22,303 nt of DNA from Pseudovirgaria hyperparasitica (Eukaryota), in NCBI GenBank assembly GCA_010093815.1, contig ML996597.1; one strand, 5' to 3'. The translations under genes were made by a program, and so were the position numbers. Shown in pieces: positions 4,265 to 22,303 of this stretch. Below the pieces are notes generated by a model. The model made no database searches. It was given only the letters and a program-made list of their open reading frames with translations, and had not been told where the DNA came from. Positions within the stretch are counted from its first letter, which is position 1. Each line of letters starts with the position of its first letter.

Positions 4265-6368
4265 TTAGCCTTGGCTGTTGCGTTTCTTTGCTTCTTGCAC
4301 AGCTCGATCCCAGCTCGTTCGCCAAATGAAGATGTTGTTGATTAGCGCGACAACGGCCAACCCAATGGCTGGTCCAGCCCAGAGACCGTGAAGCTCCCAG
4401 CCAAGACCAAAAGCGGTACCAAATGATATTGGTAGCCCAACGATGTAATACGCAAACAAGCTTACGTATCCACCAATCTCTTGTCGCCCTAGGCCGCGTA
4501 GTATACCATTGCAATTGGTAGCAATAGAATCAACTACAGTTGTGTCAGTTCCGAGATCGCTTAACCACATATGATCTGATAATCGACTTACAGAGTTGGA
4601 ATGCCGCACATATCGGCAGTACACCGGCGACAAGATCAATAACCTCTGGGTCTGACGTGAATAGCCTCGGAATGTACGCCTTCAGACTGCTTAACAAGGT
4701 TGTATTCAGTACTCCCACGAAGACAGCAGCTACCATGGCGACTTTTGCAGCCATCCTTGCAGGCTCTGCAAGTGTTGCACCAATAAGATTGGCTATACGT
4801 GTACTGGCGGCGATGCTCATCGGGAATGGGATTTGAAAGGTGAGTGCTGCGACTGTGCTGAGGATGCTTTGCGCAGCTAGATGGCTCGTAGAGAACCAAC
4901 TCGCAGACAGAGTTAGTATTTCGAAGGCCAAGAATTCCGCGAGAACCATGACTAATCCCGGTAGAGCAAGCTTGATCATCGGCCACCAATTTCGAAAGGC
5001 ACGCTTAGAGAACCCTCCCCAGCATTCCATGCCGTGGACGAAATAAACGTAGATGAAGAGACAGAGAGGGAGGAGGTTCTCGGTGACAGCGACAGCAATT
5101 GGCGCCCCAACGAAACCCCACCCGAACACCTAGGTATCAATTAGCAAATGTGTGTGAATACATGTCTGTGACTAAACCAACCCAGACGAATAAGTAATTC
5201 ATCAAAGCATTCGTGGGTGCACAAATGAGTAAAACATATGTTGTGGCTGAGAATAACCCTTGCGCCTGTACATAACGCTTTCCACTCTCAAATGCTGCAT
5301 AGCCGGGGGCTCCGATCAAAAGAATCTTGAGATACAGTCCAGCGAGGCGTGCGGTTTCCTTCTCTGGTACTATAGCTTCGAGAATCTGTGTACCGAGAAG
5401 CCATATTATCGCGATTGGGATTGTGATTGTCCAAAGAAAATACACCATGCGCTGTAGCTGCAAGCCAACTAACTTTTTGTGACCAGAACCATACGCCTGA
5501 GCAGCCAGGGTATCTAAGCTAGTCGCGAGCCTAGGTATGTGAGAATTATTTTGCAAATCGAATTGTGAACTTACCCTTGGTACACGGCGTAGCCGGTAAT
5601 GTTAGCGGTCATACTGGCGAGTGACACAGCGCCAAGCTCTACCTTCCCGATGTGGCCAACTGTGAAAATGCTCGCGACAGTCAGCGAGTATTGCAGTAGG
5701 AACGTGAGAATCAGCGATCTCGAATATCTCGCCAGGACCTTAGACTCCCTCTGCCACGTCGTCTGAATCTTGCCTGCAAGTACCGCACTCTCCCAAGTCC
5801 GGTCGATCAAGCTGGGATTGTCGATACCTCCATAGGGTCTTGAAGGGTCACCAATCAGTGGTGTATCTTCGTTCACTGCTCTGTTTAGGTACTCGTGCTC
5901 GGCTCGTCTACTTTCCTCATCTGGAACACTCTGCACCTTCCTCAGACGACCAAAGGACAGTTGTGATTTGAGCTTTTGTGCCATAGTACTATCGCTGGAT
6001 CGTCTGGGATGTTTTGGTGGTATTATATTGTTGTCCCTAAGCAGACTTCTTTCTTCATTCCTCGCTACTTCTCTCTCTGCTTTCGATAGATGTACATGTT
6101 CGAGCTTGTTCGCGGTAATAGTAGAGCGGGGGCCTGTCGCGATATAACTAGGTCGTCGATACGATTCGGCCAAACAATGCCCCAGCGGTTGGTTGATGGA
6201 GTCTGTATCAGAATCTCCGTCCCCATCAAGGTCCCCTGTATCATACTGGTCGGAGATGTCCTGTGCTATGCTAGCTGCAGCAATTGGCGATGAGGAGAGA
6301 TAGGTGTGTAGCTGGGAAGTGTGTGAAGCACTGTTGCCGCGCGCACGAACAGGAGGTGGCTCTGACAT
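4265..6368 (-). CDS. MATE family efflux transporter (fungal ERC1-like); complement(join(4265..4533,4592..5129,5182..5530,5575..6368)), ~649 aa
   Basis: MATE motifs VGHIGKVELGAVSLASMTANITG, GLATSLDTLAAQAYG, SIAASTRIANLIGA and NGILRGLGRQ. Three GT-AG introns (5531-5574, 5130-5181, 4534-4591) join the ORF-track pieces in frame. The ATG at 6368 (caccATG) is preferred; an in-frame ATG at 6383 is an alternative. Confidence 0.93.
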
Positions 6369-6640
6369 GGTGACTTGTGGCATGGACCTCGTCAATCAAT
6401 GGCTATGGTGGTTCGAGAGACGAAAGAGTGATTGTGTCGAGGGCAATAAGCTCGTGAAGTGACTCCGACTGAGTGGAATCCATTTAGACGATGGATCGGG
6501 TATCGTGGTGCGGTTATAGTGCGGTGGAGCTACCAGGGAATGGTCTGTTGGTGGGGCTGGACTAGGACGGGATGATGTAGGATGAGGTGGTTCAGGCTGG
6601 CTGCAAAGATAAATCGACTTCCAACGAAGGTATATGTATA

Positions 6641-6650
6641 TATTTATATA
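6641..6650 (-). promoter_or_regulatory. Candidate TATA box (TATATAAATA) for the MATE gene
   Basis: AT-only island about 270 nt upstream of the MATE ATG on the minus strand, in otherwise mixed-composition sequence. Confidence 0.4.
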
Positions 6651-7171
6651 TGAGCCGGGTATAATGATGCTAATATTATGGATGCTGCGCTGGGGTTTCG
6701 TGCGGGGCTGTGGGAGGCACAGGTAATTATCCATGAATGGATCCTGGGCCCGTACCATTCATAGCTAATAGGTTATCCGATTGTCCAGGGAAGCAACCTC
6801 AAACAACGCCGTGGAGGTCAGTCACAGGAGTTTCTCCATCTATTCACATTGTCTCATGATGGTTGGGTTCTAGCTCACGCAACGACGACGACGGAACCCT
6901 TGTTACCGTTACGCCCATGCTGACAGTCCCACTAGTGACTTTTTCAGTGTCCTTGTTCGGTAAAGGCTCATTCTGAATCATAATGTTTAATCCCAGTGGC
7001 GAAGTACTACACCCTCGATTCCTGGCTCGAATCTCGGATACTGTACAATGGCTCAAATAATGATAGGGGCTCTGTGCCGATCAGAGATGCAGGTGAAGAT
7101 GCTGTATTTAAGAGATAGTAGCGCTCATTCCTGTTTCATTCGTTATATCTCTCGATTTTTAATTCTCGCCA

Positions 7172-7181
7172 GTCACGTGAC
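7172..7181. promoter_or_regulatory. Perfect palindrome GTCACGTGAC (extended E-box, Cbf1/bHLH-type site)
   Basis: 10-bp palindrome in the divergent MATE/ABC-F intergenic region, 5 nt before the ABC-F ATG. It matches the RTCACGTG Cbf1 consensus; function is untested. Confidence 0.4.
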
Positions 7182-7186
7182 CCATC

Positions 7187-9560
7187 ATGATCGCGTCAAC
7201 ATCAACTATTGTTGCTACATGCCAACAGACGAGGTTTCATCTCCTAGCAGACAGAAGATCATCCGAGGTATGTTCAACGAAATGGGTACTATACTCATCT
7301 GCTGAAGCGCACAGGTGGCCATACAGAAGCTCAACCTTTCCATTATCCCAAAATGCGCCTCTGTTGGGACTCGTGCCAAGACTGCGAAAATCAAGGACAA
7401 ATCGGCCCCGGCTCTTGACATATTGGTTGATGCAGACTTGAAATTAAAATCCGGAGTCCACTATGGTCTTTTGGGTCGCAATGGAACCGGCAAATCCACT
7501 TTGCTGCACGCAATGGCTGCAAAGCTTATCCCAGGGTTATCTTCCGCCACGAAGATAGCTTTGCTACAACAATATGTGTCGGACAGGCAGACGAAATCAG
7601 GGCCATCCGCACGGATCACTTTTAATGGATCCACAGGCCCATCCATGCAGCACAACGCCTTAGAATACGTGATCCAGAGCAATACGACCAAGATCGATAT
7701 CGAATCGAAGCTAGACACGCTCCGGGCTGCGGAGGAAGGGCTAGACGAGCGGTCCCAGCTCAAAGCATATCATATGCTACGCTATCACGAACTGCAAGCT
7801 GCTCTTACAGAATCACGTAAGAATGCTACTCTTAGGAGTGGCTCTCGAGGCTCGGAAGCTCGAAAGGAACTTCTCGCTCTGGAAAAGACTGTCGCAGAAT
7901 ATGGTAAGGAGATTGATTCTGAAGAACCATCCCTTCACTCAGTCGAATGCCAGCATGAACTCGAAAAAGCGGCCGAGAGAATAGCAGAACTTCAATCCCA
8001 GCTTGACGAGATAAAGACTGCTGATATTGATAGCAAAGCGCTCGATATGTTAACTGCACTCGGGTTTTCCAACAAGGAACTTCAGACTCCGGTCGTGAAC
8101 CTATCGGGTGGGTGGCAAATGCGATGCCTTCTGGCCAGCGTGCTCCTCCAGGACGCTGATATCATAATTCTGGATGAACCAACTAACTTCCTGGATATGC
8201 TTGGTATCATCTGGTTACAAAGGTATTTGATCAGTATACGGTTTCGGTCAACGCGTACGTTTGTGATTGTATCGCATGATCGAGATTTTATGGATAGCAT
8301 ATGTGAAGAGGTGATTGTCCTCAAGGATCAATCTCTACTATACTTCGATGGTAATATAACCGAGTACGAACATGATCTTAGGTCGAGGAGAAAGTATCTC
8401 ACGTCCATGAATGATGCCCAGGATCGCCAGAAAGCGCACATGTCGAAGACAATTTCTCAAAACATAAGAGCCGGAAAAAAGTCTGGTGATGACAATAAAC
8501 TACGACAGGCGGCTTCACGGCAGAAGCGACTCGATGAGAGATCTGGTATGCAAGTCAATGCTAAAGGTGGTCGGTTCAAGTTGAATCGTGATCTTGCGGG
8601 TATGTATTCCATGTGTGAGGATGTATCACGATACTCAGCATGTTACTAGGATACCATCTAAGCAATCGACGAGAAATCGATATCCCGCCGGAAGAAAGGA
8701 CAACGAGCATATTACTACCTCAACCACGTGAACTTCGGTTTCCTGGGCCACTGGTGTCCCTTCAGAATGTTTCATTCTCTTACACGTCGAACAAAGATTT
8801 CATTCTTCGTGATATTAACCTCAATATACATATCGGTTCACGTACTGGAGTAATAGGCCTCAATGGTTCGGGTAAAACCACCCTGATTCGACTCATTACA
8901 AATCGAATCAAGCCAAAATCAGGCACAAGCACTTACCATCCTCGCCTCAAGATCGGACACTACTCCCAGCCCATAGTTGAAGAGCTACGTGCTGAAGGAC
9001 AGAATTGCCCCGAGCTGACGTCACTCGCGAAACTGGCATCTGTGTCTGCCGAGGTAATGGATGAAAGTGATATGCGTGCACTGCTTGGTTCGTTCGGATT
9101 GCCTGGGCGTCTTGCCTCTGAGGTCCCCGTTGCAAATCTGTCTGGAGGGCAACTGGTAATACGTCATGACTTTTCTGTGATCTGCACAGGCTGATCAGTC
9201 CATTAGGTGCGACTTGCCCTTGCATGCATCGTTTGGGACCATCCACATTTACTGGTCCTAGATGAAGTTACAACTCATCTGGATCTTTATACAGTCAAAG
9301 CTTTAAGCAAAGCACTACAGTCTTTCAGTGGCGCGGTGATACTAGTCACTCACGATCGTTTTATGATGAAAGCGGTGATTGAAGGTGACAAATCCCTAGG
9401 CTCGAGTGATATTGATGACATGTCCAGCGACGATGAGGGAAAACCGCGAACAGCTCGTGCTACTTATGCCCTCAAGAATGCAAATTTGATGATACAAGAG
9501 TCTGGGGTCTGGCAATTTGAGCAGAGCCTAGGACCGCGACTAGATAAGCTATTCGTGTAA
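7187..9560 (+). CDS. ABC-F family ATPase (two nucleotide-binding domains, no transmembrane domain); join(7187..7267,7315..8599,8650..9155,9207..9560), ~741 aa
   Basis: NBD1: GRNGTGKST, LSGGWQMR, ILDEPTNFLD, VSHDRDF. NBD2: GLNGSGKTT, LSGGQLVR, VLDEVTTHLD, VTHDRF. Introns 7268-7314, 8600-8649 and 9156-9206 are GT-AG and give a continuous frame (2226 nt). Confidence 0.92.
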
Positions 9561-9630
9561 TATGTTAAATAAGTCCAGAAATATAACCTTAAAAGTATTA
9601 TATATACAGACGATACATATTATAAGTCCC

Positions 9631-9694
9631 TAGTACTAAGCAGCAGCTATTATATAGTACCAGGTAGCAGCATATAGCACCAGGCAGCAGCTCC
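9631..9694 (+). repeat. Three degenerate tandem copies of a ~20-24 bp unit (core TAGCACCAGGCAGCAG)
   Basis: tagtactaagcagcag (9631), tagtaccaggtagcag (9655), tagcaccaggcagcag (9675). Confidence 0.7.
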
Positions 9695-9939
9695 ATCGCT
9701 TGAACAGTAAGTACCATTGATAAAGGACCTCAAGAAACTCTACCACCTAACCACCAGGTCAGGATTAGTGAAGCGCTGTGCTGCGAACCATTCTCGTAAG
9801 CACGACAAAATAGCGAGGGTAGGGTAGACCGATGATTTGAATTCGCGAATTGGAATAGGAATAACGGTCATTATAGTTCAAGCTCTAGACCTTATGTACT
9901 AGGCCATTTAAATTTAAAAATACTTGTATTTGCTCATTT

Positions 9940-10815
9940 TCAGATGAGTAGTTCTTCTAGTAACGCTTGTCCGTGTGGTTTTAGATCCGGAAATTTGGAA
10001 ATCGAGTAGAAATCAAGCCAAAACCCGCGTGCATCTTCGTGTGGTGCCATATGTTTGCGTAAGATCGTCTTCCATTCTTTGTCTTCCGATCCAAGACCAA
10101 TTCCAGCGGCAGTATATTCCCACCATACGGGGAAGTACCCACTTGCCTCCCAATCCAAAATACCTGTGAGATTGCCGTTCTCCACCATGATGTTACCACT
10201 GTTTAAGTCCCCATGAGTAAAAGTGAAAGGGCCTGTAGAAGGCATTCGTTGTCGCAAACGCTGACAAGCCTTCTCGGGTACTCCTCTCAGAGCTTTTTTT
10301 AATTCAGCCCAGAGGTCATCATCGGAGGCGAAGGGGCCATGAGGGATGCCATAGTCGGGTGGAAAGAGGAAAGCCGAGTATAGCGGCTTCATATCCACAC
10401 TCGCCAAGTGATGGGAATGGAGCTGCCGAAGCTGTTGGAGAGACTCGGCTGTTTGTACTGCGATACGTTCTTTGTCATCTCTTGAGAGCTTGCTCCACAT
10501 TGCTTGTAACGTAGTCCCAGGGACGCGATGCATGACTGTAAAATGTCGTCCATTGCTTTCAGTCCATTCTTCAACGATGCTAGGCACCGGGATTGTAGTC
10601 TTCTCTTGTATTAGACGAATATTAGGAGCTTCATTATCCGGTGGCTGGTTTGATCTCTCCTTCAGGATCAATTTAGACCCTACGGACCAGACACCACGGT
10701 CGCTGACTCCGTAGACCAGCTTCACATGGCTCTCATAGCGACAAGAATGCTGACGTGTTGAAGACCAGCTACAGGCGCAGCAGGGAATGTCAGTACCTAT
10801 ACCGGTACTAGTCAT
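9940..10815 (-). CDS. Aminoglycoside phosphotransferase/choline kinase (APH)-family protein, 291 aa
   Basis: Intact ORF with TTIPVP, the catalytic-loop motif FTHGDLNSGNIMV, the metal-binding GILDWE and SGYFPVWWEY, typical of fungal APH-like kinases. Confidence 0.9.
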   Translation of the reverse strand: MTSTGIGTDIPCCACSWSSTRQHSCRYESHVKLVYGVSDRGVWSVGSKLILKERSNQPPDNEAPNIRLIQEKTTIPVPSIVEEWTESNGRHFTVMHRVPGTTLQAMWSKLSRDDKERIAVQTAESLQQLRQLHSHHLASVDMKPLYSAFLFPPDYGIPHGPFASDDDLWAELKKALRGVPEKACQRLRQRMPSTGPFTFTHGDLNSGNIMVENGNLTGILDWEASGYFPVWWEYTAAGIGLGSEDKEWKTILRKHMAPHEDARGFWLDFYSISKFPDLKPHGQALLEELLI

Positions 10816-11141
10816 CGAGACTTAAAGACAAGGGAACTGTATAGAAAGGGCATTCGGGAATCTCGCTGCAGCTAATCACAGTGTTCTAGGTCGTCCCTTG
10901 GTCCTACTAGGTTACGTCTATCCATTTGTCCATAGTTAGTTACATGAGAAAGCTTATACTAGGTCTAATCTATTCTTATATAAGATTCTTTTTAATATAC
11001 TTCTAAAGAACTTATAGTTTAGGTTCTAAAAGAGAGTAGATAGATCTATATAGAGGTTATTAGCTCTCTTTAAGATTAATAGTAAGGTTAGTAGATTAGT
11101 ATTAGAATAACTTAGAGAAGTTAATTAGTAATATAATATAT

Positions 11142-11144
<3 letters not shown>

Positions 11145-11177
<33 letters not shown>
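11145..11177 (-). repeat. (AAT)11 microsatellite = (ATT)n 3' tail of LINE copy 1
   Basis: The same tail follows the homologous 3' ends at 20088-20099 and 21268-21282. Confidence 0.9.
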
Positions 11178-11178
<1 letters not shown>

Positions 11179-11397
11179 TTAGTAAACTAGGTAGAGTACC
11201 ACTCTATAGACGCATGCCTTCTCTAGTCTAAGCTACTATATAAGAAGAAACCTATAAATAGGAAAAACTCCCTTATATCTATAACTACGCTCTATCTATC
11301 CTCTCGTTCTTTATATATATATAGCCCTAGGGGCTATCTATAGGCCTATAGCCTATATTATAATAGTTTACCCTTAGGTAGCACGTATAGATACGGA

Positions 11398-11432
11398 GAT
11401 TATTAGTTAAGGGCTACCCTTAACTAATAATC
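11398..11432. repeat. Perfect palindrome/hairpin, 16-bp arms and 3-nt loop, at the ORF2 end of LINE copy 1
   Basis: gattattagttaaggg-cta-cccttaactaataatc. Confidence 0.95.
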
Positions 11433-14400
11433 GCGGTTCTCCCGGGGTTCTTCCGATGTATACTAGGGTTCTTCTAGTATATATCGGGCTTCTTCCGGTA
11501 TATATACGTAGGTCTACTAGAACTAGGGGAGAGGAAGGTATATAAGTATCTATCGGGCGATATTCTTAGAGTACTTATTAAGCTATCGCGTGATGTTAGA
11601 GGTCCTCGTTATATAGATAAGGGCTTATCTTAGGGTATAGAGACTAGAGTACGTCGCGAGGTAGTAGTATATTATACCTCTCCGGCCGTAGTCCTTATAC
11701 TAGAGAGATATATCTAGGACGCCTCTCTAGTAGAGGTAATATAGGAGACCTATAGCGCCTATTTAGGCTTAGAGGAGTATAGATACTTAGGCCTTCGTTA
11801 GCCCTTTATATATCTATTTACTTAGTTTCTTCTAAGGCCCTTAGATCTATTCTAGATACCTATCCTATTAGAAGGCCTACTAGGCTTTAAGTACCTCTCT
11901 CTATTTATTCTAGATCTATAACTATATAACGCGGCTAAGCTTCTTAGGGCTCTATTAGCTTAGGATAGTATCCGGGTTATTTTAAACCTTCTATATAGTC
12001 TAGCTCGAGTCCGCCTCTATATAGTATTTATATTATACTCGAGTTTATTCTATAGTAGAGAGGGCCTAGTAATACGCGCGGATACGTGTACGTAGTATAG
12101 CGAAGGTATATACCCTATCTCCTCTATATTCTTATACTTATTATTTAGTAAAGTATATAAGTCTCTATATCTAGTAGAAGTCCTATATACTCGTTATATT
12201 TATCTCGCGTTAGAGGAGCGTCGTGTTAGTAGCTTTATATATACCGGAGATAAGGCGGAGTATACGGTTTTATATAGACTTAAGCTTTACCCGCCGAGCT
12301 TATATAAGGGCCGTATACTAGTACTTATATCTATATATAAAGGCTAGGCGTACTAGAGAGATATATAGCTATCTTGCCTTATCCCGGGCTATTCTCTACG
12401 TGGATACCGTAATCTAGTATATAGCGGTTTCTATCTAGAGGGCTCTAGAGACGGCGTGTACCACCTATAGTCTCTATTTTAGCTTATTATTAATTATAAC
12501 GCTAAGTGCTCGTATACTCTATGCTAGTAGTTCTATAAAGGCGTCGATTTAGGGGCGACGTGCCCTCTCCCTAGTAGCCTATCCTCTATAGTAGTTAATA
12601 AAGTATATAAGCTAGTATTTTTTAGGTGCGAATTTTACTCCGTGGCGCTTTATCTACTAGACGTATTTCTCGTGGTCTCGTTTAAGTCGTGTATATATTC
12701 TACTAGTACTACTATCGACCGCGAGGAGGTATATATTATCCGTGTATCCAACTACCTCTATATATTCTATTCTCTAAAGGAGGTCTACTATAAAGAAGAG
12801 GAAGAGGATTAGAGAGATAGTACTCCCTTACGGGATGCCGTATACCGTCTCCTTATATTTACTTTGGTATCCGGGGATATATATTTAAGTAGTCCTTTAC
12901 GTAAGGAAGGACTATATAAATTATATAATCTACTTAGGTATTCGCCTTATCCGGAGGTTATAGATAAGTCTTATATAGTTTACCTTATTAAACGCCCCTA
13001 CTATATCTAGGGAGAGTAGCGTAACGACTTATCCTTATTTCTATATAGTCTAGATAACCTTAAGGATATATTAAATGGCCGTGATTAGAGAGCTTTCTAC
13101 CTTCGCCTTCTAGTTTACTAGGAGAAGGCCGTGTACCTATACTACTATACTTATCTTCTTAGTAATCGTGGCTTCTAGTACCTTACTAAGGTAGGAGAGA
13201 AGGGCGATCGGCCTCTATCCCTTCGGCGTGTTTAGGCTCTTCCCTAGTTTTAGAAGTATAACCGTGTATATAGTTCGGAAGCTCTATAGGTAGTATCCTA
13301 TACGGGCGCACGCTTAGAATATATGGCCTATAATTAGTAAGGTCGCCTATATGGTCCTCTTAAGGCATTAATTCGGAATTCTATCTAGCCCGGGCGCTTT
13401 ATCATTCGGGAGTATCTTAATAGCGCCGAGTATATTATCGTCCGTGATTTCCCTAGGGATACTTACGGCTTCCGGGTATTCTATACCGTTAATATCTAAT
13501 AGATCTACGGGTTCTAGGAGAGGGAATATAACCTCTTATAGGATCTCTATTTTCTCGAGGCTCGTGAAGTATATCTTTTCTTAATATATAAGGGGGGGTA
13601 TAAGTGGTATAGGTGTCGGGAAGGCGGTACTTTTAGCCTATTTTACTATATACTATAGTCTAGTAGTATTACGTGTATATCTATCCGTGACTATATACTA
13701 CTATTTATATCGCTTATTACGGAGGACCTTATCTTATTATCTTCTCGCCTCTCTCTATTCATCCTACGCTTTAGGTATACGGTTATAGTATACGCGTGTA
13801 TATAATCTCCGGACTTCTCGCCTATACTCTTATACTTAAGGTATACTTTTCGGGTCTAGGGGTCTATATATTCGGTACGGCACGTGTTTATCTCTTACTC
13901 CCTAGTATGCCTATAGAAGTATATTCACGGCCTGGTTAATGGCCGGGCCATTAGATACGTCGACTATAGACGGGTCTAGGATCGTCGATTCTAGGTCCTT
14001 TAGGTACTTTTCCTAGTTAGTATCCTTCTATAGCTATCGCCCTTGTTAGTCTTAAGGGGTAGATATATCTATTACGGTCTCTATATATTCGTGGTCGGAG
14101 TCTATCTATATAAGGCTTAGACGGTAGTATTAAGTCCTATTATAAATATATCTAGTGGCTAGGGTAAGGTCGAGTATAGATCCGCCCTTATCTTATTTAT
14201 GTTTTCGCTAGGTAATCTATTCTACTAGTATAAGAAGGTATAGAAAGCCGTGGTATCAGGTACATAGTTCTCTAGCTCGAAGCTCTTCGCGGGTAACGGT
14301 TAGTCTACCCTACTAGCTATAATAGAGATTAAAGTCTCCTAGGAGGATATATTATCCTAGCTCGGTAGTACCCTTAAGTATATCATCCACCTAAAGCGAT

Positions 14401-14720
14401 CGGTTCTAATTATATATATTATATATATAGAGGGGTCTAATATTCGTCTAGAGGTATAGTATTATCCGGAGGTTATCCCGTTTAGTATATAACCATAATA
14501 AGAGTAGAATAGACTTATGGATATGGAAGAGGACTCTCCTCTCCGGTCCTAGGGGGTGTATTATATAATATCCTAGGTATGTTATTAGTTTATTCGTCTA
14601 GTAGTATTTATATAGCTCCTATATAGCGAGTATTATAGCTCCGGTCTCCTTAAGGAGTGTCGCCTAGTTCTTACGTTTATACTATATATTTACCTATATA
14701 ATTAGGAGTGTATCTTAGTC
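11400..14720 (-). pseudogene. LINE copy 1 ORF2 (AP endonuclease + reverse transcriptase + C-terminal zinc finger), RIP-disrupted; start approximate
   Basis: Motifs readable through RIP: ILAI*E (ILAIQE, ~14616-14633), LLGDFN (~14328-14345), SDH (14091-14099), KAPGLDRIPN (~13375-13400), *RPIALLSYLSKVLE (~13180-13220), SLDIVGAFNKVNY, GIP*GSTISLILF (~12800-12839) and YTDN for YADD (12735-12746). Confidence 0.9.
11442..11504 (-). repeat. 3 x 21-bp tandem repeat encoding a YIPEEPR-like heptapeptide at the ORF2 C-terminus
   Basis: ccggggttcttccgatgtata / ctagggttcttctagtatata / tcgggcttcttccggtatata; a degenerate counterpart lies at ~19748-19810. Confidence 0.85.
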
Positions 14721-14729
14721 TCTTATTAG

Positions 14730-16186
14730 GTGCTAGGGAATATATAGGCCTATATATTTATTTCTCTAAGACGCGACTATCCTCGTACGGCGGCGGCCTT
14801 AGTAATTCCTTAGGGCTATCCTATTATTAGCTTTCTCGGGATAGTTTACTATTTCTAACCGCTTCCTTATAAGGAGGTAGTCTATAGTAGTAGTATTATA
14901 GTAAAGAGAGGAATAGTAGTAGGTCGCATCGTTTATAGCTACCTTACTCCCTTTATCCGGATTAAGTAGATATATTTAGTAACCTATTTACGTTTCGCGC
15001 ACGTAGCCGACTACGACAGGTACTTACCGTTATAGTTAGAGTACTTTGCCGTATCCCTATCCCTCTAGCCCTCTCCTCGTGTTCCGTAGGGGTACTTCTA
15101 GATACTATATTCTTATTAATACTATCTATACCTAGTCTTTTAGAAGTACCGCTATGCCGTATACCCGTATCCCTAATAGTTAAAGTACTATATTATCGCC
15201 TATGCTCTATCCCATAGTTCCGCTATAAGAAGCTCCCCTTCCGCTAGAAATCCCTCTTATATAATTTAATACGTGAGGGCGGGGTCCTTAAGCTCTACTA
15301 TTATAGTAGAGTATGCCTTCGATCTAGTTTTAATCCCTTATATATTCTTCTACTATACTCTTATAATCTTAATCCCTAGGTATTTTCGCTTATTTAACTA
15401 TTCTATCCGTATAATATCCTCTTCTCTAATAATCTATCCGCTTATAGATATAGAGTATATCTATATCGGGTATATAGCCGCTCTAATAGAGGCGCCTAGA
15501 AAGATACTACTAATCGCGTTCGGATCACGCGAGATAGTCTACTATACGATATTTATTATCGTGGTAAGTACTACTCCTCCTAGCGTGAGTTTAGCGGCGA
15601 CGACGTTTAACTATATTCCCTTTTATTTATTAATCTTACTTACTATATCCTTTAGGGATACTTACTAGACCTATGCTAGGGTATCCTTATTCTAGATTGC
15701 GACACGTATACTATACGCTACGTCGCCGGTCTAGGGGGCCCGTAGTATAGCCTCCGGTGTTACTACTATTTATACCTATATACTAGGGCGCTTACCTTAA
15801 GTAAGTTCCTCCTAGATTCTACGTAGGCTAGCCTCTATTCGGTCGAGCCTACCCTCCGGTCCTTCTAGTTATATCTTCTTCTCCTCCTCCGTAATTCCCT
15901 TTAGATTCTAGATAAGGTTCTAGAATATATATAGGAGGGTCTTCTAGCCCTCTCCGGCTTCCTTCTCTATACGTACTATCTAATAGTTAATACGATCTAG
16001 GAGGGTTTCCCCTCTTAGGGTCCCCTTTATTCCGTCTATCTATAGCGGCGTGCACCTTTAGGTATGTTCTACGTTTTAGATAGATATATAGTTACCCTCG
16101 GTAATATCGCTATATAGCCTTTTCTATTATACCGGTGGGGGTATATCCGGTATATACCGGGGTATATTAGTACCTAAGGCCGCCAT
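14730..16186 (-). pseudogene. LINE copy 1 ORF1 (gag-like nucleic-acid-binding protein), RIP-disrupted; end approximate
   Basis: ATG 16186 is in frame with GRLDRIEASLRRI*EEL and with knuckles that de-RIP to CFNCQGYGHTAQRC (15146-15187) and CSNCNGKHLSWSATC (14999-15043), with a third between them. Confidence 0.88.
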
Positions 16187-16187
16187 A

Positions 16188-16220
16188 TTTATTAGTTAAG
16201 GGCTACCCTTAACTAATAAA
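16188..16220. repeat. Perfect palindrome/hairpin, 15-bp arms and 3-nt loop, immediately 5' of the LINE ORF1 ATG
   Basis: tttattagttaaggg-cta-cccttaactaataaa; the 31-nt core is identical to 11400-11430. Confidence 0.95.
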
Positions 16221-18871
16221 AGGGGGTTGGCGTATCGGCGTTCTAGTAGCGTGGTCCGTGCCTCTATCTCCGTGAGGATTTTAAGAGGGTATATATATAT
16301 CTTTACACGGCGATAACGTCTTAGTTTCGACGCTACATATACATGCGTATAGTAGTAGTTAGTATACTCGGTATACTCTATCGATTAAGGTGTGTATCTT
16401 ACTATATTACCCCGAATGGACCAAGTTAGCCTCTTAGAGATGTAAAAGAAGTTTTTGTTAGAAAGGATATAATCCTAACGAAGATACTTAGGAACCTATA
16501 ATAAACATTAGTAAAGTAGCGATGTTAATATAAACTATATTTTATTTCTTAATTAGGAATAAATACTAAGCTAAAACTTATATATATAGTATATAGTAAT
16601 ATAACGCACTTAGTAATATAAAAATTACTTATTTTAGGTGGTGTCTTATAGAGTAATTAAACTTTGAAATTTACTCTATTTTCTCTAGATACTCTATATC
16701 TTAGAATTAAGTTCTAGAGATAATAACCTAAATATAAAGTATTTTTATAATTACTTTTAGGCGTATTCTAGGGTAATCTAGAGATTCTTTTCCTTCTATA
16801 GATAAAGAGTATAAGTATAACTTAGACGCTAGGTACTTAGAAGTCTCTACTCTAAGCTAGGTAGAATTACCCTCTATATTTTAATAATTCTAATTCCTTA
16901 ATAAGGAAATTAGAGTAAATAAATAGAGTAATTCTACCTTTCTAGTAGCTATATAAGTTAATACCTATAAGTAATACTTTTAATTTTCTATAGGGCCCTC
17001 TAGAGAATCTAATTATCTATAGTAGAACCTTATTATTCTCTATTACTAGAGTAAGGTAAGTAGGGACTTATTATAGGCCAAGAGCATCTATTTTAAACTC
17101 TAGAAGTATTCTAGAAAGGGAGAGAGAGATATAGGGACGTCTAATATAAATAGAACGCCCTAGGGTTATCTTTAAAGCTTAAAGTATAGATAAAAAAGGT
17201 CTTAATTTATAAAAGAATTATATACTATACTAAATATATAAGCCTCTAGATATAAGAGATATACCTTAAATATATAAAAGTAGAAGGGAAGCCTAGAGAC
17301 TATATATATATATATATACTATATCTAGATAACTAAGGTATAGAAGAAATAGAAAGAGGTAATCTAATCTTATAATAGAACCCTCTATAATAAATAATAT
17401 AAATACTAGTATATAATTACTAATAAATATACATAATAGGCTATAGAGCTATAGTATATAGTAAAGTAGACTAAGAGCGCGGACGTGCCGACGCTACTAC
17501 TACTAATGCCTCCCCTAATATACTAGGGAAGAATATATACTATAAGCCCTAAAAAGATAGAGATTCTCTAAGAAGTTATATTTCCCCCCCTAGAGCTAGT
17601 AGACCTATTAGATATTAATAATAATATATATCTAGATATAGTTAATATCTCTATAGAGATTATAGAAGAAGATATACTTAATACTATTAAAGTACTTCTA
17701 AATAATAAAGTATCTAGACTAGATAGAATACTAAATAGATACCTTAAATATACTATATAGGTAATCTTACTACTTATTAGTCTTATCTTCTAGATATATA
17801 CTAAGAACGGGTACTACCCCTAAAGCTTCTAGACTATCTATACTATTATACTTCTAAAGCTAGAGAAGAACTCTAACTCTCTAAAAGGATAGAGACTAAT
17901 TACCCTTCTCTTCTATTTTAGTAAGATACTTAAAGCTATAATCGCGAAGAAGATAAGTACTATAGTATAAGAATATAATCTTCTTCTAGTAAACTAGAAG
18001 GTAAAGACTAGAAGCTCTCTAATTACTACTATCTAATATATTCTTAAAGTTATCTAGACTATATAGAAGTAGGGACGCGTAGTAATATTACTTTCTCTTA
18101 ATATAGCTAGTATATTTAATAAGATAAACTATATAAGACTTATCTATAATCTATAGAAGAGATATATATCTAAATAGATTATAAAGTTTATATAGTCCTT
18201 TCTCGCTAAAAGAATTATCTAGATATATATCTCTAGATATTAAAGTAAATATAAGAAGATAATATATAGTATTCTATAAGGAAGTACTATCTCTCTAATC
18301 CTCTTTCTCTTCTTTACTATAGACCTTCTATAGAGGATATAATATATAGAGGTAGTAGAGTACGCTAATAATATATATCTTCTAGCTATTAATAATAATA
18401 CTAGTTTAATATATAAACGCCTTAAATAAGACTACGAGAGATATATCTAGTAGGTAAAGCGCTATAGAGTAAAGTTTACCCCTAAGAAATACTAACTTAT
18501 ATACTTTATTAACCGCTATAGGAAATAGGCTACTAGAGAAGGAGAGCGACGCCCTAGAATAGATACTTTTACTAAACTACTAATATAGAGTATATATATA
18601 CTTAGTATTATAATTAATAATAAACTTAAATAGAGTCTATAGATTATATATATAGTATCTAGGGCCCTTAAGATAGAAGCCGCTATATACTAGATTACGG
18701 CCTCTATATAGAGAACTACCTAGAATAAGACGTGCTAGCTATATATCTCTATAGTATAACCCGCCTTTATATATAGATATAAGTACTAGTATATAGCCCT
18801 TATATAGGCTAGGTAAATAAAGCTTAAGTCTATATAGAACTATATACTCTATCTTATATCTAGTATATATA

Positions 18872-19011
18872 TGTTAGGCACGTGCCTGCTAGTTGATTAT
18901 ACATGTATATAGTAGTCGTATATAAGTAGTGTGCTCTACCCTTGAAGTAGTAGCTTTAAGATTCGGTCCTTTTAGTATAGTTGGTTGGTGCGTAGAGCCC
19001 GTCTCCTTACA
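18872..19011. mobile_element. Solo LTR (140 bp) nested in LINE copy 2
   Basis: TGTTAGG...CCTTACA termini with a 5-bp TSD ATATA (18867-18871 / 19012-19016). Removing the LTR and one TSD restores gtatatataaagctac, as seen in uninterrupted LINE copy 1. Confidence 0.88.
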
Positions 19012-19821
19012 ATATAAAGCTACTAATATAGTACTACTATAATATAAGATAAATATAATAAATATATAGAACTTCTACTTAATATAGAGAGTAATATACT
19101 TTATTAAATAATAAGTATAGAAATATATAGAATATACTAAATATATCTTTACTATACTATATATATAAGTTAGTATCTACTATTAAGTACTACTATATAT
19201 AGACTAGACTTAACTATAGTATAAGAGTCTAATAGAGATAGACTTAAACTAAATTATATAAGAGATTAGAGATAACCTAGATATCTCTCTAGACTAGTAG
19301 AATCCTTAGAAGCTTATATAAGCTATATAGTTATAGACCTAGAATAAATAGAAGGAAGTTCTCTAGATCTATTAGATATTCTAATAGAATAGATATCTAG
19401 AATAGATTTAGAGACTATAGAAGAAACTAAGTAGATAGATATATAAGAGGCTTATAAAAGTCTAAGTATCTATCCTTCTCTAAACCCGAATAGAAGCTAT
19501 AGAATTTCTATACTATTTATACTAGAGAGGTATCCTAGATATATCTCTATAGTATAAAGTATATAGCTAGAGAGATATAATATAGTACTATCTTATAATA
19601 TACCCGGACCTCTATATATAGAGATAATTACTTATCTATATAATAAGGACCTCTAATATTATATAGTAGCTTAATAAGTACCCTAAGAAGATCGCCTAGT
19701 AAATACTTATATATCTCTCTCTCCTCTAATACTAATAGATCTAGATATATATACTAGATATAACTAGATATATACTAGATAGACCCTAGTATACGCTAGA
19801 AGAACCCTAGAAGAACTCTAA

Positions 19822-19853
19822 TTATTAGTTAAAGGGTAACCCTTAACTAATAA
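19822..19853. repeat. Third copy of the LINE palindrome (one extra A)
   Basis: ttattagttaaaggg-taa-cccttaactaataa at the position homologous to 11400-11430. Confidence 0.9.
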
Positions 19854-20339
19854 CCCCTATACTCTATATATACTATCTAAGAATAAAAATAATAGTACTA
19901 TAGATTATAGATCTATAGATATTTCTAATAGCTATATACTTAAGATAATATAGAGACTTTATAAGATATAGTTATAGAGAGAAGGGAGTTTTTCCTTTTA
20001 TAAAGGTTTCTTCTTATATAATAGCTTAGACTAGAGAAGGTATATATCTATAGAGTAAACTACTCTATCTAGTTATATAATAATAATATTATTATTATTA
20101 TACTTACTATTCTAAAGAGTTCTTAAGTATATATATATATAGTATCTCTATATATTAGTACTATTATATATTATATACTATATATATATATATATTAAAG
20201 ATTATTATACTTAGTATACTCTATTAATTAATATATATAGATTACTATATCGCCATAAATTAACTAGTTTTAGTCCCTTAGAGTATAAGAAGTTTTTTCT
20301 TAATTTTAGTATATTCTATATACAAGTATAGTTATAATA

Positions 20340-20422
20340 GGCCAGGTGGCGTAGTGGTAGTATACTACGTTACTAGAAGCGTTTATCATCTAACGTCGTG
20401 GGTTTAAATCCTATAATAGCTA
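20340..20422 (+). pseudogene. RIP-mutated tRNA-like head of the SINE (Pol III A and B boxes); isotype not assignable
   Basis: A box TGGCGTAGTGG; B box GGTTTAAATCC (de-RIP GGTTCAAATCC); T-stem gtggg/cctat (de-RIP cccac); acceptor ggcca/tagct (de-RIP tggcc); central stem acgtta/taacgt. Confidence 0.75.
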
Positions 20423-21281
20423 CCTTTTTATACACTAGTTTTCGCACGCTCTATTAAAAAGTATACGGGGCTAAGCGAGCATGTAACGTGAAGGTTACCG
20501 TTATATAACTACTTAGTCCTAAGCGACTATTAGGTAATGTAAAAATAACTATACCGTTATTATATAATAAGAATTACCTAATATAGCTACCTACTAAGCT
20601 ATCTTAAGTAGTAGAGCGACGCCTAGAGCGGCTAGACCCATAACTAGCTTAGCTCGAATTATAGAATTTTCACTATATACCGGGGCCTTATCTACTCTAA
20701 TCCGGCTTAGCTCGCGCTTACTCCGGCTCGGTAACCACGAAATAGACGGTAATACCTAATTAAGTATCCCGCCTACCTATAGACGATTATATAGCCCCAA
20801 AGAATAATTTCCGAATTCGGCCTAGCTAGGGTTAGTACTAAGGCATGGACCTATTAGATATATACCCCCTCCGGCATTAGTTATCTTAATTAATAACTAC
20901 TACCCGGCGTAAAGCTATATTCCTATGGATAGGAAAAAACACGGTAATATAGGAATAAAAGACTAGGCCTAGCCTAGCGACCTACCTAATCATAAGAAAG
21001 GTAATACCTACTATAGTTAGTTAGGGCGTTATTAAGAGCCGGTACTAATATAGTAATAAAAGCCTAATATAAGGATAAGAAGTAAGTTTATCACCTAATA
21101 GGATTCGAGGACTTAGACTAGGCTAGGTTAGGTTAGTAATAGGGTCTAGTTAGGGAGCCAATCATAGGAGGTTTTCTTATATACATAGTAGCTAATACTA
21201 GAGGAGGCCTGAGCCTATGGAGCATATATATGGCTATATATATAGTTCTTCCTAGTTAAACACTAATATTATTATTATTAT
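20340..21281 (+). mobile_element. tRNA-derived SINE-like element (~940 bp) with a LINE-related 3' end
   Basis: tRNA-like head, non-coding body, 3' end similar to both LINEs, (ATT)n tail, and an exact 13-bp TSD TATAGTTATAATA at 20327-20339 and 21282-21294. Confidence 0.85.
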
Positions 21282-21294
21282 TATAGTTATAATA

Positions 21295-22303
21295 TAAAGT
21301 AGTACTACTACTACTCTAACTAACTAGCTATATAGTAATAGTACTATCTACTTAGAGAAACCCTTAAAGTTAGTACTAGTCTTAGTATTATTAGTATATT
21401 TCTCTATCTTCTTTATAAGGTTATAAAGTTTATAGATATAGTAGTATATAGTCTTAGTATTCTTAGAGTTAACTACCTAGATAATAGTCTAAAGATTAGA
21501 CTTCTTTATAAGATAGTATAGTATAACTAGTCTAGAGATTATCTTTATAGTAAATAACTAGTATAAGTAGAAGGGTCTACTAATATATATAGAAGTAGTA
21601 GTAGACTAATAAAAGTATAAGACTTTACTAGTATAGATAGAGATCTTAGCTAGCTTTTCTAATTATTAGTTAGAGATCTTTATTATAGTATAATAAAAAG
21701 AGATATAACTTACTTTTATCTACTATAAAGAAATACCTTAACTACTTATTATCTATACTATAATTAGTATATCTACTATAACTAAATAATATCTAGATAC
21801 TAGAGAGAGAAATATAGTAGAACTTAAAGTAGTATTTATTCTTATAATAGATTATATATATCTTTATAGTAATCTTAGAGTAGATATAGATAAGAGCTAG
21901 ATATCTAAAGTAAGAATAGCTAAGATTAACCTTATAACGCCTAGTAGATATAATATTAAGCTATACTCTTATTAGAATAAACTTCTTAATCTTAGTATTA
22001 TTCCTAGTATAGAAATACTCTAGATTTTTAATAGTAAGATATATCTTAAAGTTCTTATAGCTATTAGCTATATAGAGTTAGATAGTCTTCTTACTATAAT
22101 AGTAGAATAACTTATAAAGAATCTCTTTACTATACTTACTATTAATATCTTTATAAGAGCTCTCTATCTTAGATAAGATATAGTAGTTATTATTATAGGA
22201 TTTTAGTGTAAACTTAACCTCTACTATATCTAATAAGTTTATATAAGGTATTTCCTTATTAGGAATAGCTTAATATTAGTAATCGATATTACTAATATTA
22301 TCT
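21295..22303 (-). pseudogene. RIP-destroyed intron-containing protein-coding relic of unknown identity, 5'-partial; continues left of the SINE to ~20270
   Basis: One minus-strand frame has only a handful of TAA/TAG stops over ~196 codons despite the AT richness. A 55-nt GTAAGT...CTAAC...TAG intron (21659-21713) joins it to the next open-looking frame. Confidence 0.55.

What the first reader, a model, noticed from the sequence alone, without database searches (positions are those of the whole stretch)
11398..16220. Identical 31-bp palindromes bracket the LINE coding region (ORF1 start and ORF2 stop)
Seen: ttattagttaagggctacccttaactaataa occurs identically at 11400-11430 and 16189-16219, and nearly so at 19822-19853 in the diverged second LINE. 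In element orientation one copy ends just before the ORF1 ATG (16186). The other overlaps the probable ORF2 terminus (...gat tat tag tta agg gta gcc ctt aac taa taa; one possible de-RIP reading is DYQSRVALD-TGA-TAA). Flanking sequences are unrelated, so this is not an LTR. Established: LINEs normally lack repeated terminal or subterminal motifs. Inference: a conserved cis-element. Options are hairpins controlling translation initiation/termination, two palindromes swapping partners to form a long-range duplex that closes the RNA into a loop, an ORF1p packaging/dimerisation signal, or a dimeric transcription-factor site in DNA.
Basis: partly seen in the sequence, partly recalled or inferred. 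Interest (0 to 1): 0.8.

Follow-up and report, generated by a model that had tools for sequence, protein, structure and literature searches.

The report
Twin hairpins bracketing a dead fungal LINE
A decayed jumping gene in a fungal genome carries the same 31-base hairpin-forming sequence just before its first gene and at the end of its second, which is real and unusual, but nothing here shows that it has a function.

Summary
TTATTAGTTAAGGG-CTA-CCCTTAACTAATAA occurs exactly at 11400-11430 and 16189-16219. A 32-nt variant lies at 19822-19853 in a second copy.

Both exact copies lie inside one RIP-degraded endonuclease/RT LINE on the minus strand, about 16527 (or 16609) down to 11137. The 5' copy ends 2 nt before the ORF1 ATG. 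The 3' copy contains the ORF2 stop codon and is followed by a 263-nt 3' UTR with a (TTA)n tail.

They are not LTRs, target-site duplications or a nested insertion. Public-run contigs show the whole unit, both sites included, at a several-hundred-fold depth excess.

Each copy folds into a 13-14 bp hairpin (-15.8 kcal/mol) and carries stops in all three frames on both strands.

Between the two diverged copies, the palindrome is among the best-conserved 2.3% of 31-nt windows.

None of 13 distant relatives has such a pair. One other family repeats its 3' hairpin inside ORF1.

The nearest precedent is the duplicated B-module of Dictyostelium TRE5-A.

My best reading is a family-specific RNA element marking the ORF boundaries. 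Its function is unproven, and a neutral duplication remains a strong rival. Interest is moderate.

The parts
11125..11136 (-). Candidate target-site duplication, 3' side (TTAGTAATATAA on the + strand), abutting the tail
   Evidence: A 12-nt exact match to 16610-16621. The sequence is AT-rich, so this could be chance. It is tentative.
11137..11399 (-). 3' UTR downstream of the hairpin, ending in a (TTA)n tail (about 11137-11188)
   Evidence: Shared with the second copy (11148-12240 matches 20111-19012) and with a third fragment (11112-11250 matches 21319-21173).
11400..11430 (-). 3' palindrome/hairpin. It holds the ORF2 stop TAG (11426-11424) and in-frame TAA TAA (11405-11400).
   Evidence: RNA hairpin -15.8 kcal/mol, z -5.0, 0 of 200 shuffles as stable.
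11424..14852 (-). ORF2 remnant (AP-type endonuclease plus reverse transcriptase), with many RIP-made stops. The start coordinate is approximate.
   Evidence: Pfam RVT_1 E 7.9e-13. Exo_endo_phos_2 E 2.3e-5 (24.7 bits, below the 27.4 cut-off). Aligns end to end with the intact relative P0171.
14701..16186 (-). ORF1 remnant, ATG at 16186-16184. The end coordinate is approximate.
   Evidence: Reading of the frame. The zinc-knuckle-like spacing with Y in place of C was read by eye. Pfam found no family.
16189..16219 (-). 5' palindrome/hairpin, 2 nt upstream of the ORF1 ATG. An in-frame TAA lies 4 codons before the ATG.
16220..16527 (-). 5' UTR of the LINE. It may run on to 16609 if the candidate target-site duplication is real.
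   Evidence: Summed contig depth stays at the LINE level up to the 16327-16527 bin and falls about 80-fold in the next bin. No similarity to the ORF2 end.
16610..16621 (-). Candidate target-site duplication, 5' side
   Evidence: Tentative.
17233..20154 (+). Second, 5'-truncated and more heavily RIP-mutated copy of the same LINE
   Evidence: blastn at 73-74% identity to 11148-13872 in inverted orientation. GC 0.25-0.29.
19822..19853 (+). Palindrome of the second copy (32 nt: one inserted A, and G>A in the loop)
   Evidence: The hairpin is still predicted at -12.0 kcal/mol.
21173..21319 (+). Third fragment holding only the last ~150 nt of the 3' UTR, without the palindrome
   Evidence: blastn at 71% over 150 nt.

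Best explanation
The two 31-mers are a duplicated hairpin module specific to one LINE family. They belong to the transcribed body of a high-copy, RIP-inactivated, endonuclease/RT-encoding LINE on the minus strand.

One copy closes the roughly 340-nt 5' UTR, 2 nt before the ORF1 AUG. The other contains the ORF2 stop codon and opens the 263-nt 3' UTR.

In the RNA each copy folds into a 13-14 bp stem with a 3-nt loop and carries stop codons in all three frames. I propose that they act as ORF-boundary elements:
- The 5' copy ends any upstream or read-through translation directly in front of the ORF1 AUG.
- The 3' copy ends ORF2.
- Because the two copies are identical and self-complementary, they offer the same binding site twice to one factor, most plausibly the element's own ORF1 or ORF2 protein.
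- Alternatively they pair with each other. That would bring the ORF2 stop next to the ORF1 start in an RNA that ends in (UUA)n rather than poly(A).

Shown here: position, identity, membership of the LINE, predicted stability, and above-average conservation between two copies.
Inferred: any function, and which of the two RNA modes applies.
For: - Exact identity at both sites, with 0 of 100 shuffles giving a match.
- The borders of the shared sequence coincide with the palindrome borders and with both ORF boundaries: 2 nt before the ATG, and the ORF2 TAG inside the palindrome.
- The 3' site is at the homologous place in a second copy that is only 73% identical.
- Contigs of two public runs (one sample) cover both sites as part of a unit spanning 11101-16527. 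Summed depth there is 65,827-273,509, against 258 for a unique flank contig in run X1. None of the 40 listed majority differences falls in either palindrome.
- Hairpin energy is -15.8 kcal/mol, z -4.98. A duplex of the two copies is -41.4 against 2 x -15.8 kcal/mol.
- Between the two window copies, 1 substitution and 1 indel were seen where 6.3 substitutions were expected from dinucleotide-context rates (Poisson P 0.014). Only 2.3% of 2,695 windows of 31 nt are as well kept.
- ORF2 ends where relatives end. The alignment with intact P0171 runs to within 25 residues of our end and 12 of its end.
- A second, unrelated family (L040/L045/L061) repeats its own 3' UTR hairpin 1-4 times inside ORF1.
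Against: - 0 of 13 distant relatives with both boundaries on the contig share a motif of 10 nt or more there. The only 14-nt match (L037) is a target-site duplication.
- Only 3 of 34 relatives have an unusually strong hairpin near the ORF2 stop.
- The palindrome has no CpA or CpG, the two contexts mutated at about 80% in this element. Much of its preservation is therefore simply low exposure to RIP.
- Every copy I could see is dead, and only one 5' copy could be read.
- A stable hairpin 2 nt before an AUG could hinder scanning rather than help it.
- Local hairpins compete with long-range pairing.
- The duplicated B-module of TRE5-A is judged irrelevant for retrotransposition by its authors (PMC3159450).
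Confidence: 0.4

Rival explanations
1. Neutral internal duplication. A short piece of one UTR was copied to the other end of the coding region in the master element and spread with the family, without any function, as proposed for the 3' B-module of TRE5-A.
For: - Absent from 13 of 13 distant relatives.
- There is a published precedent of a duplicated LINE module judged dispensable (PMC3159450).
- Identity between copies is partly explained by the lack of RIP-prone dinucleotides.
- The family looks like one young burst. Differences are 95% transitions, 287 of 303 places in run X1.
Against: - The duplicated unit is exactly the palindrome, with no flanking base shared.
- It lands exactly on both ORF boundaries. 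A random segmental duplication would not be expected to do either.
- Conservation between the two copies exceeds the context-corrected expectation (P 0.014).
Confidence: 0.3
2. DNA-level site. The palindrome is a binding site for a dimeric DNA-binding protein, or a cruciform-forming sequence, acting on transcription, chromatin or recombination of the integrated element.
For: It is a near-perfect 14+14 dyad, typical of dimer sites. It works in either orientation, which would suit both sense and antisense control. TRE5-A has an antisense promoter in its 3' module (PMC3159450).
Against: - The 5' copy lies about 310-390 nt downstream of the element's 5' end, directly against the ATG. That is an odd place for a promoter element.
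- No such motif appears in the 11 kb of host genes in the window.
- Nothing here ties it to a known factor.
Confidence: 0.12
3. An independent small palindromic insertion or a generic genome-wide motif, which happened to enter the LINE master at two places.
For: - Two contigs of run X2 carry different sequence directly left of 11398, the palindrome edge (table 7). That flank matches nothing in the window.
- I could not scan the genome.
Against: - 3 of 3 sites in the window are at LINE positions. None lies in the genic half or in the other RIP-degraded repeats.
- ORF2 ends in the palindrome at the same place where relatives end.
- Two independent insertions exactly at two ORF boundaries are unlikely.
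- There were 0 hits to the motif in three public collections.
Confidence: 0.1
4. A structural by-product of insertion: a target-site duplication, LTR-like terminal repeats, or a LINE nested in the 3' end of another copy.
For: The two copies are direct repeats flanking the coding region.
Against: - Both copies are internal. There are 263 nt of 3' UTR plus tail beyond one, shared by two other copies, and at least 308 nt of high-depth 5' UTR beyond the other.
- 16220-16527 has no similarity to the ORF2 end, as a nested insertion would require.
- The flanks are unrelated, so these are not LTRs.
Confidence: 0.02

Closest known systems
Dictyostelium TRE5-A (structure AB-ORF1/ORF2-BC): B-module present in both the 5' UTR and the 3' UTR (PMC3159450, passages read)
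   Same: It is a LINE with one sequence module repeated directly before ORF1 and after ORF2. The 5' copy defines the ORF1 translation start.
   Different: The B-module is 290 bp and is not described as a palindrome. Here the unit is a 31-nt hairpin. There is no sequence relation and the host and clade differ. The authors consider the 3' B-module irrelevant for retrotransposition.
3' UTR stem-loops of LINEs recognised by their own RT: TRE5-A C-module, eel UnaL2, insect R2 (as cited in PMC3159450; PMC5135761 seen as listing and abstract only)
   Same: A stable hairpin in the 3' UTR of a LINE that ends in a short tandem-repeat tail rather than poly(A).
   Different: The TRE5-A hairpin lies in the 3'-terminal C-module. 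That the UnaL2 and R2 stem-loops also sit at the very 3' end is my recollection, not something read here. Here the hairpin is 263 nt from the 3' end and overlaps the ORF2 stop. A second identical copy sits at the ORF1 start.
SART1 stop-start translational coupling that needs nearby RNA structure (Kojima et al. 2005, as described in PMC5972666, passages read)
   Same: RNA structure placed right at a stop/start junction of a LINE. Here the sequence UAA UAA AU AUG follows a hairpin.
   Different: In SART1 the junction lies between ORF1 and ORF2 and the structure is downstream. Here the junction precedes ORF1, and no upstream ORF is known.
Genome cyclization sequences of flaviviruses (search listing and abstracts only) and palindromic dimerisation sites of retroviruses (recalled)
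   Same: Complementary sequences near the start of the coding region and in the 3' UTR that can pair over kilobases, or self-complementary sites that pair between two RNAs.
   Different: This is an analogy of mechanism only. There is no homology, and no evidence here that the LINE hairpins pair with each other.

Membership tests
Non-LTR retrotransposon (AP-endonuclease type LINE) | Reverse transcriptase domain | tested here: met
   Pfam RVT_1, E 7.9e-13, 49 bits against a cut-off of 29.6, in one minus-strand frame.
Non-LTR retrotransposon (AP-endonuclease type LINE) | AP-type endonuclease N-terminal to the RT in the same ORF | tested here: met
   Exo_endo_phos_2, E 2.3e-5, 24.7 bits, just under the cut-off of 27.4. 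The alignment with P0171, which has both domains above cut-off, covers it.
Non-LTR retrotransposon (AP-endonuclease type LINE) | 5'-truncated copies sharing the 3' end, and a simple-repeat tail | tested here: met
   The second copy holds only the 3' 2.7 kb and a third fragment only the last 150 nt. A (TTA)n tail is present.
Non-LTR retrotransposon (AP-endonuclease type LINE) | Target-site duplication flanking the insertion | tested here: inconclusive
   A 12-nt candidate lies at 11125-11136 and 16610-16621. The sequence is AT-rich, and the depth drop suggests a 5' end nearer 16527.
   No named Tad1 sequence was available. The best relatives are unnamed, at 27-28% raw identity.
LTR / terminal direct repeats | Long repeats at the very ends of the element | tested here: not met
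   The repeat is 31 nt and lies internal by 263 nt and by at least 308 nt. The flanks are unrelated.
TRE5-A-like duplicated UTR module | The same module in the 5' UTR before ORF1 and in the 3' UTR after ORF2 | tested here: met
   This is an architectural likeness only. Homology to TRE5-A was not tested.
Stringent-type LINE 3' stem-loop | Hairpin directly upstream of the 3' tail that the RT needs | tested here: not met
   The hairpin lies 263 nt from the tail. The RT dependence cannot be tested with these tools.
RIP-mutated repeat | TpA/ApT above 0.89 and (CpA+TpG)/(ApC+GpT) below 1.03 (thresholds recalled) | tested here: met
   LINE1 gives 1.67 and 0.19. The genic part gives 0.75 and 1.26. 95% of differences to other copies are transitions.
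Known RNA families (Rfam 15) | A match at gathering score | tested here: not met
   The only hit in 11000-16700 is snoR138, 21.2 bits against 44, E 0.96, elsewhere in ORF2.

The most novel reading that the evidence does not exclude
The twin hairpins are a cyclization or dimer-linkage device of a LINE. They switch from two local hairpins to one 31-nt duplex, possibly aided by the zinc-knuckle-like ORF1 protein. This would join the ORF2 stop to the ORF1 start, or join two RNAs. It would couple ribosome recycling and cis-preferential protein loading in a retrotransposon RNA that has no poly(A) tail. The repeated 3' hairpin of the L040/L045/L061 family would be a second, independent invention of the same principle.
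Probability: 0.15. Interest if true: 0.75.

Novelty: new variant of a known kind. Interest (0 to 1): 0.4.

Why it matters
How LINE RNAs are recognised in cis by their own proteins is still poorly understood outside a few model elements. So is how translation of their two ORFs is organised, especially in elements without poly(A).

An identical hairpin placed exactly at the ORF1 start and the ORF2 stop would be a compact and easily mutated handle on both questions. A second family with a repeated 3' hairpin hints that the arrangement may recur.

If it is only a neutral duplication, it is a small curiosity of one dead fungal repeat family.

Tried and rejected
- The exact 31-mer gave 0 hits in metagenome contigs. 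The core pattern with a free loop gave 0 hits in viral contigs and 0 in genome contigs.
- Earlier-findings look-ups gave nothing for this genome or sequence. A word search returned only unrelated Giardia notes.
- Rfam gave no family at gathering score. Pfam found nothing in ORF1, nor in the intact ORF1 of L040.
- The loose-end sequence left of 11398 and the other loose ends match nothing informative in the window.
- The host could be placed only in the Pezizomycotina. The ABC-F gene's best hits are 48% identical proteins of Leotiomycetes and Sordariomycetes.
- Target-site duplication, LTR and nested-insertion readings were rejected.
- I considered a transposon excision footprint around TTAA and a piggyBac-like end by eye. 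I dropped both because the outer arms are also palindromic and the site recurs at homologous LINE positions.
- Two literature searches for paired or palindromic LINE UTR elements and one for LINE cyclization (12 of 183 papers listed, all viral or cellular) found no description of such twin hairpins. This is 'not found in these three searches', not proof of absence.
Full report
OBSERVATION. The 31-mer TTATTAGTTAAGGGCTACCCTTAACTAATAA occurs exactly at 11400-11430 and 16189-16219 on the + strand. None of 100 dinucleotide-preserving shuffles produced any match. It is a 14+14 dyad around an asymmetric 3-nt centre (CTA). Both copies have the same orientation, so they are direct repeats.

A third site at 19822-19853 is 32 nt long. 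It has one extra A in one arm and a G>A change in the centre, and it lies in the opposite orientation. A scan allowing up to 11 mismatches found no further site in the window. blastn aligns only the 31 nt between the two exact sites, so the flanks are unrelated.

WHAT SURROUNDS IT. One minus-strand frame between 16259 and 11100 carries Pfam RVT_1 (E 7.9e-13) and the endonuclease family Exo_endo_phos_2 (E 2.3e-5, just under its cut-off). The other two frames carry nothing. All frames are full of stops.

- A neighbouring frame starts with ATG at 16186-16184 and reads like a LINE ORF1. Its zinc-knuckle-like spacing, with Y where relatives have C, was read by eye only. Pfam finds nothing there.
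- The 5' palindrome ends 2 nt before this ATG and puts an in-frame TAA four codons upstream.
- The ORF2 frame enters the other palindrome as GAT TAT TAG and would meet TAA TAA at its end.
- The ORF2 alignment with the closest intact relative, P0171 (E 9.8e-121), runs to within 25 residues of our stop and 12 of its own. The palindrome therefore sits at the natural ORF2 end and does not interrupt it.

THE ELEMENT IS LARGER THAN THE BRACKETED REGION. Similarity to a second copy (17233-20111, + orientation, 73-74% identical, 5'-truncated) continues past the palindrome to 11148. A third fragment (21173-21319) matches 11112-11250. The element ends in a (TTA)n tail at about 11137-11188. The 3' palindrome is therefore 263 nt inside the element.

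On the other side, contigs of two public runs from one sample were laid on 10900-16900 at 80% likeness or better. 14,871 and 5,659 pieces mapped. In run X1, summed depth is 65,827-273,509 in every 200-nt bin from 11101 to 16527 and falls to 1,538 in the next bin. A unique flank contig has depth 258. The tool warns that summed depth is not a copy number. I take it only as a several-hundred-fold excess, and as a repeat boundary near 16527.

A 12-nt candidate target-site duplication (11125-11136 and 16610-16621) would put the 5' end at 16609. It is AT-rich and tentative. Either way the 5' palindrome is at least 308 nt inside the element, at the 3' end of its 5' UTR. The stretch 16220-16527 has no similarity to the ORF2 end, so a nested insertion is excluded.

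RIP.
- LINE1 has TpA/ApT 1.67 and (CpA+TpG)/(ApC+GpT) 0.19. The genic part has 0.75 and 1.26.
- 287 of 303 places that differ from other copies in run X1 are transitions. The 40 best-supported ones mostly show G or C in other copies where the window has A or T.
- None of those 40 lies in either palindrome. 308 further differences were not shown, so minority variants cannot be excluded.
- The palindrome contains no CpA or CpG. In the LINE1/LINE2 alignment these contexts differ at 79% and 84%, against 26% for CpT, 47% for CpC and 11-19% for TpA and TpT.

IS IT BETTER KEPT THAN ITS SURROUNDINGS? From those context rates, 6.3 substitutions were expected in the palindrome between LINE1 and LINE2. 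One substitution and one indel were seen (Poisson P for one or fewer is 0.014). Empirically, 2.3% of 2,695 windows of 31 nt have two or fewer differences, and the mean is 10.1. This is modest support for constraint in the master lineage. Both copies are dead, contexts were read from an already mutated sequence, and only one comparison exists.

STRUCTURE.
- As RNA (minus strand) the 31-mer folds into a 13-bp predicted stem with a 3-nt loop. The energy is -15.8 kcal/mol, z -4.98, and 0 of 200 shuffles fold as well.
- With flanks the stem grows to 15-16 bp at both sites. The variant in LINE2 still folds at -12.0.
- Two copies can instead form one duplex of -41.4 kcal/mol, against -31.6 for two hairpins. 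This ignores the cost of closing a 4.8-kb loop.
- The sequence has stops in all three frames in both directions, as direct reading shows.
- Rfam has no matching family.

RELATIVES.
- A word-based search gave 50 proteins at E 1e-5 or better, the best at 28% identity. A full HMMER scan gave 28,271 proteins at E 0.001 or better, also with a best of 28% raw identity. No close intact family member is on record.
- A profile of four hits fetched 80 metagenome LINE loci. 430 of 593 candidate stretches were confirmed and the best 80 were kept. All are about equally distant from the window element.
- Of the 80 loci, 13 had an ORF1 with upstream sequence and a complete ORF2 with its stop. The rest were dropped for lacking one of these, and the ORF assignment in L054 and L031 is doubtful.
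- In 12 of the 13, the longest word shared between the ORF1-start and ORF2-stop regions was 6-9 nt, which is chance level.
- In L037 it was 14 nt. That word lies 8 nt before the ORF1 ATG and again right after the simple-repeat tail, so it is a target-site duplication.
- Of 34 loci with 80 nt or more after the ORF2 stop, 3 (L030, L045, L023) had a hairpin there stronger than 95% of same-size control regions inside ORF2.

A SECOND FAMILY WITH A REPEATED 3' HAIRPIN. A blastn-short comparison of each 3' UTR with the upstream part of its own element, run on 36 elements including the window, gave significant hits as follows:
- the window (31 of 31 nt);
- L037 (the target-site duplication);
- L061 (a 14-nt inverted match at E 0.005, probably chance);
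- the L040/L045/L061 family.

In that family the 3' hairpin, about 38 nt after the ORF2 stop, recurs once (L045, L061) or four times in alternating orientation (L040) inside the 3' part of ORF1. That motif occurs in 3 of the 80 loci. Twin hairpins at the ORF boundaries are thus not a clade-wide feature. But a 3' hairpin with a twin further upstream has arisen in at least one other family.

LITERATURE.
- Dictyostelium TRE5-A has the structure AB-ORF1/ORF2-BC. [quoted passage not shown] The authors regard the duplication as irrelevant for retrotransposition, because TRE5-B and TRE5-C lack it. A hairpin in the 3'-terminal C-module is essential. Similar stem-loops are cited for UnaL2 and R2 (PMC3159450, passages read).
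- SART1 couples ORF2 translation to an overlapping stop-start site and needs nearby structure (PMC5972666, passages read).
- PMC5135761, on L1/Alu 3' stem-loops, was seen only as a listing and the start of its abstract.
- Three searches found no description of identical hairpins at the ORF1 start and ORF2 stop of a LINE.

MECHANISM. What is shown is an architectural fact. One hairpin module is duplicated, lies inside the transcript, sits exactly at both ends of the coding region, is carried by a very abundant family, and is somewhat better kept than its surroundings. I commit to an RNA-level ORF-boundary element as the most likely reading (0.4). It closes all frames in front of the ORF1 AUG and at the ORF2 end. 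It also offers two identical sites for one binding partner, or for pairing with each other.

The strongest rival is a neutral duplication of the TRE5-A kind (0.3). Its weakness is that the duplicated unit is exactly the palindrome and lands exactly on both ORF boundaries. A DNA-level dimer site (0.12) and an independent mini-insertion or genome-wide motif (0.1) cannot be excluded without the genome. For the latter, two X2 contigs with a different left flank at 11398 are the only hint. Target-site duplication, LTR and nested-insertion readings are rejected.

VERDICT. The functional interpretation remains a hypothesis. It is a new variant of a known kind (LINE UTR hairpins and a duplicated UTR module). 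Interest is moderate.

Noticed in passing
L040:858-1014 and 4806-4830; L045:269-290 and 4151-4174; L061:3266-3287 and 6996-7019: A metagenome LINE family repeats its 3' UTR hairpin (about 38 nt after the ORF2 stop) inside the 3' part of ORF1. L045 and L061 have one extra copy. L040 has four, in alternating orientation, where the copies also encode a short repeated peptide. The motif is present in 3 of 80 loci.
   Followed up: partly
L037:8624-8637 and 14004-14017: A 14-nt target-site duplication flanks a full-length LINE whose ORF1 ATG lies only 8 nt from its 5' end and whose tail is a CACTCA-like simple repeat. It is a clean example of an intact insertion on a 66-kb metagenome contig.
   Followed up: partly
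window 11148-13872 versus 17233-20111: Mutation between the two LINE copies hits CpG (84% of sites differ) as hard as CpA (79%). Many differences to other copies are TA in the window where the others have CG. The RIP-like process in this fungus therefore seems to act on CpG as well as CpA.
   Followed up: partly
window 11322-11349: The 3' UTR holds two more small dyads, TAGCCCTAGGGGCTA (11322-11336) and ATAGGCCTAT (11340-11349). The first resembles the GGG/CCC core of the main palindrome with its arms swapped.
   Followed up: no
window 11398 (table 7): Two contigs of run X2 match from the palindrome edge rightwards but carry about 35 nt of unrelated sequence to its left. This may be a subfamily with another 3' UTR, a rearrangement at the palindrome, or the motif in another context.
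   Followed up: partly
window 20202-20297: A 99-nt stretch, 72% identical to the 5' UTR segment 16359-16456, lies next to the tail of the second LINE copy. No palindrome or ORF1 follows it, so it is probably a stray 5' UTR fragment of a further copy.
   Followed up: no
window 10900-11100 and 16528-17232, 20300-22303: The DNA flanking the LINE copies is also RIP-degraded repeat (RIP indices 1.66/0.11 and 1.76/0.16). The left flank, 10900-11100, has a summed depth about 100 times that of the unique flank contig. The LINEs therefore sit in a repeat-rich, AT-rich block next to a normal gene region (GC 0.44-0.51).
   Followed up: no
window 1-10821: The gene-rich half holds long ORFs. One (7306-9194) is an ABC-F type ATPase whose best named hits, at 48% identity, are from Leotiomycetes and Sordariomycetes. 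The others look by eye like a fungal zinc-cluster transcription factor, a MATE-type transporter and a phosphotransferase-like protein. These three were not tested.
   Followed up: partly
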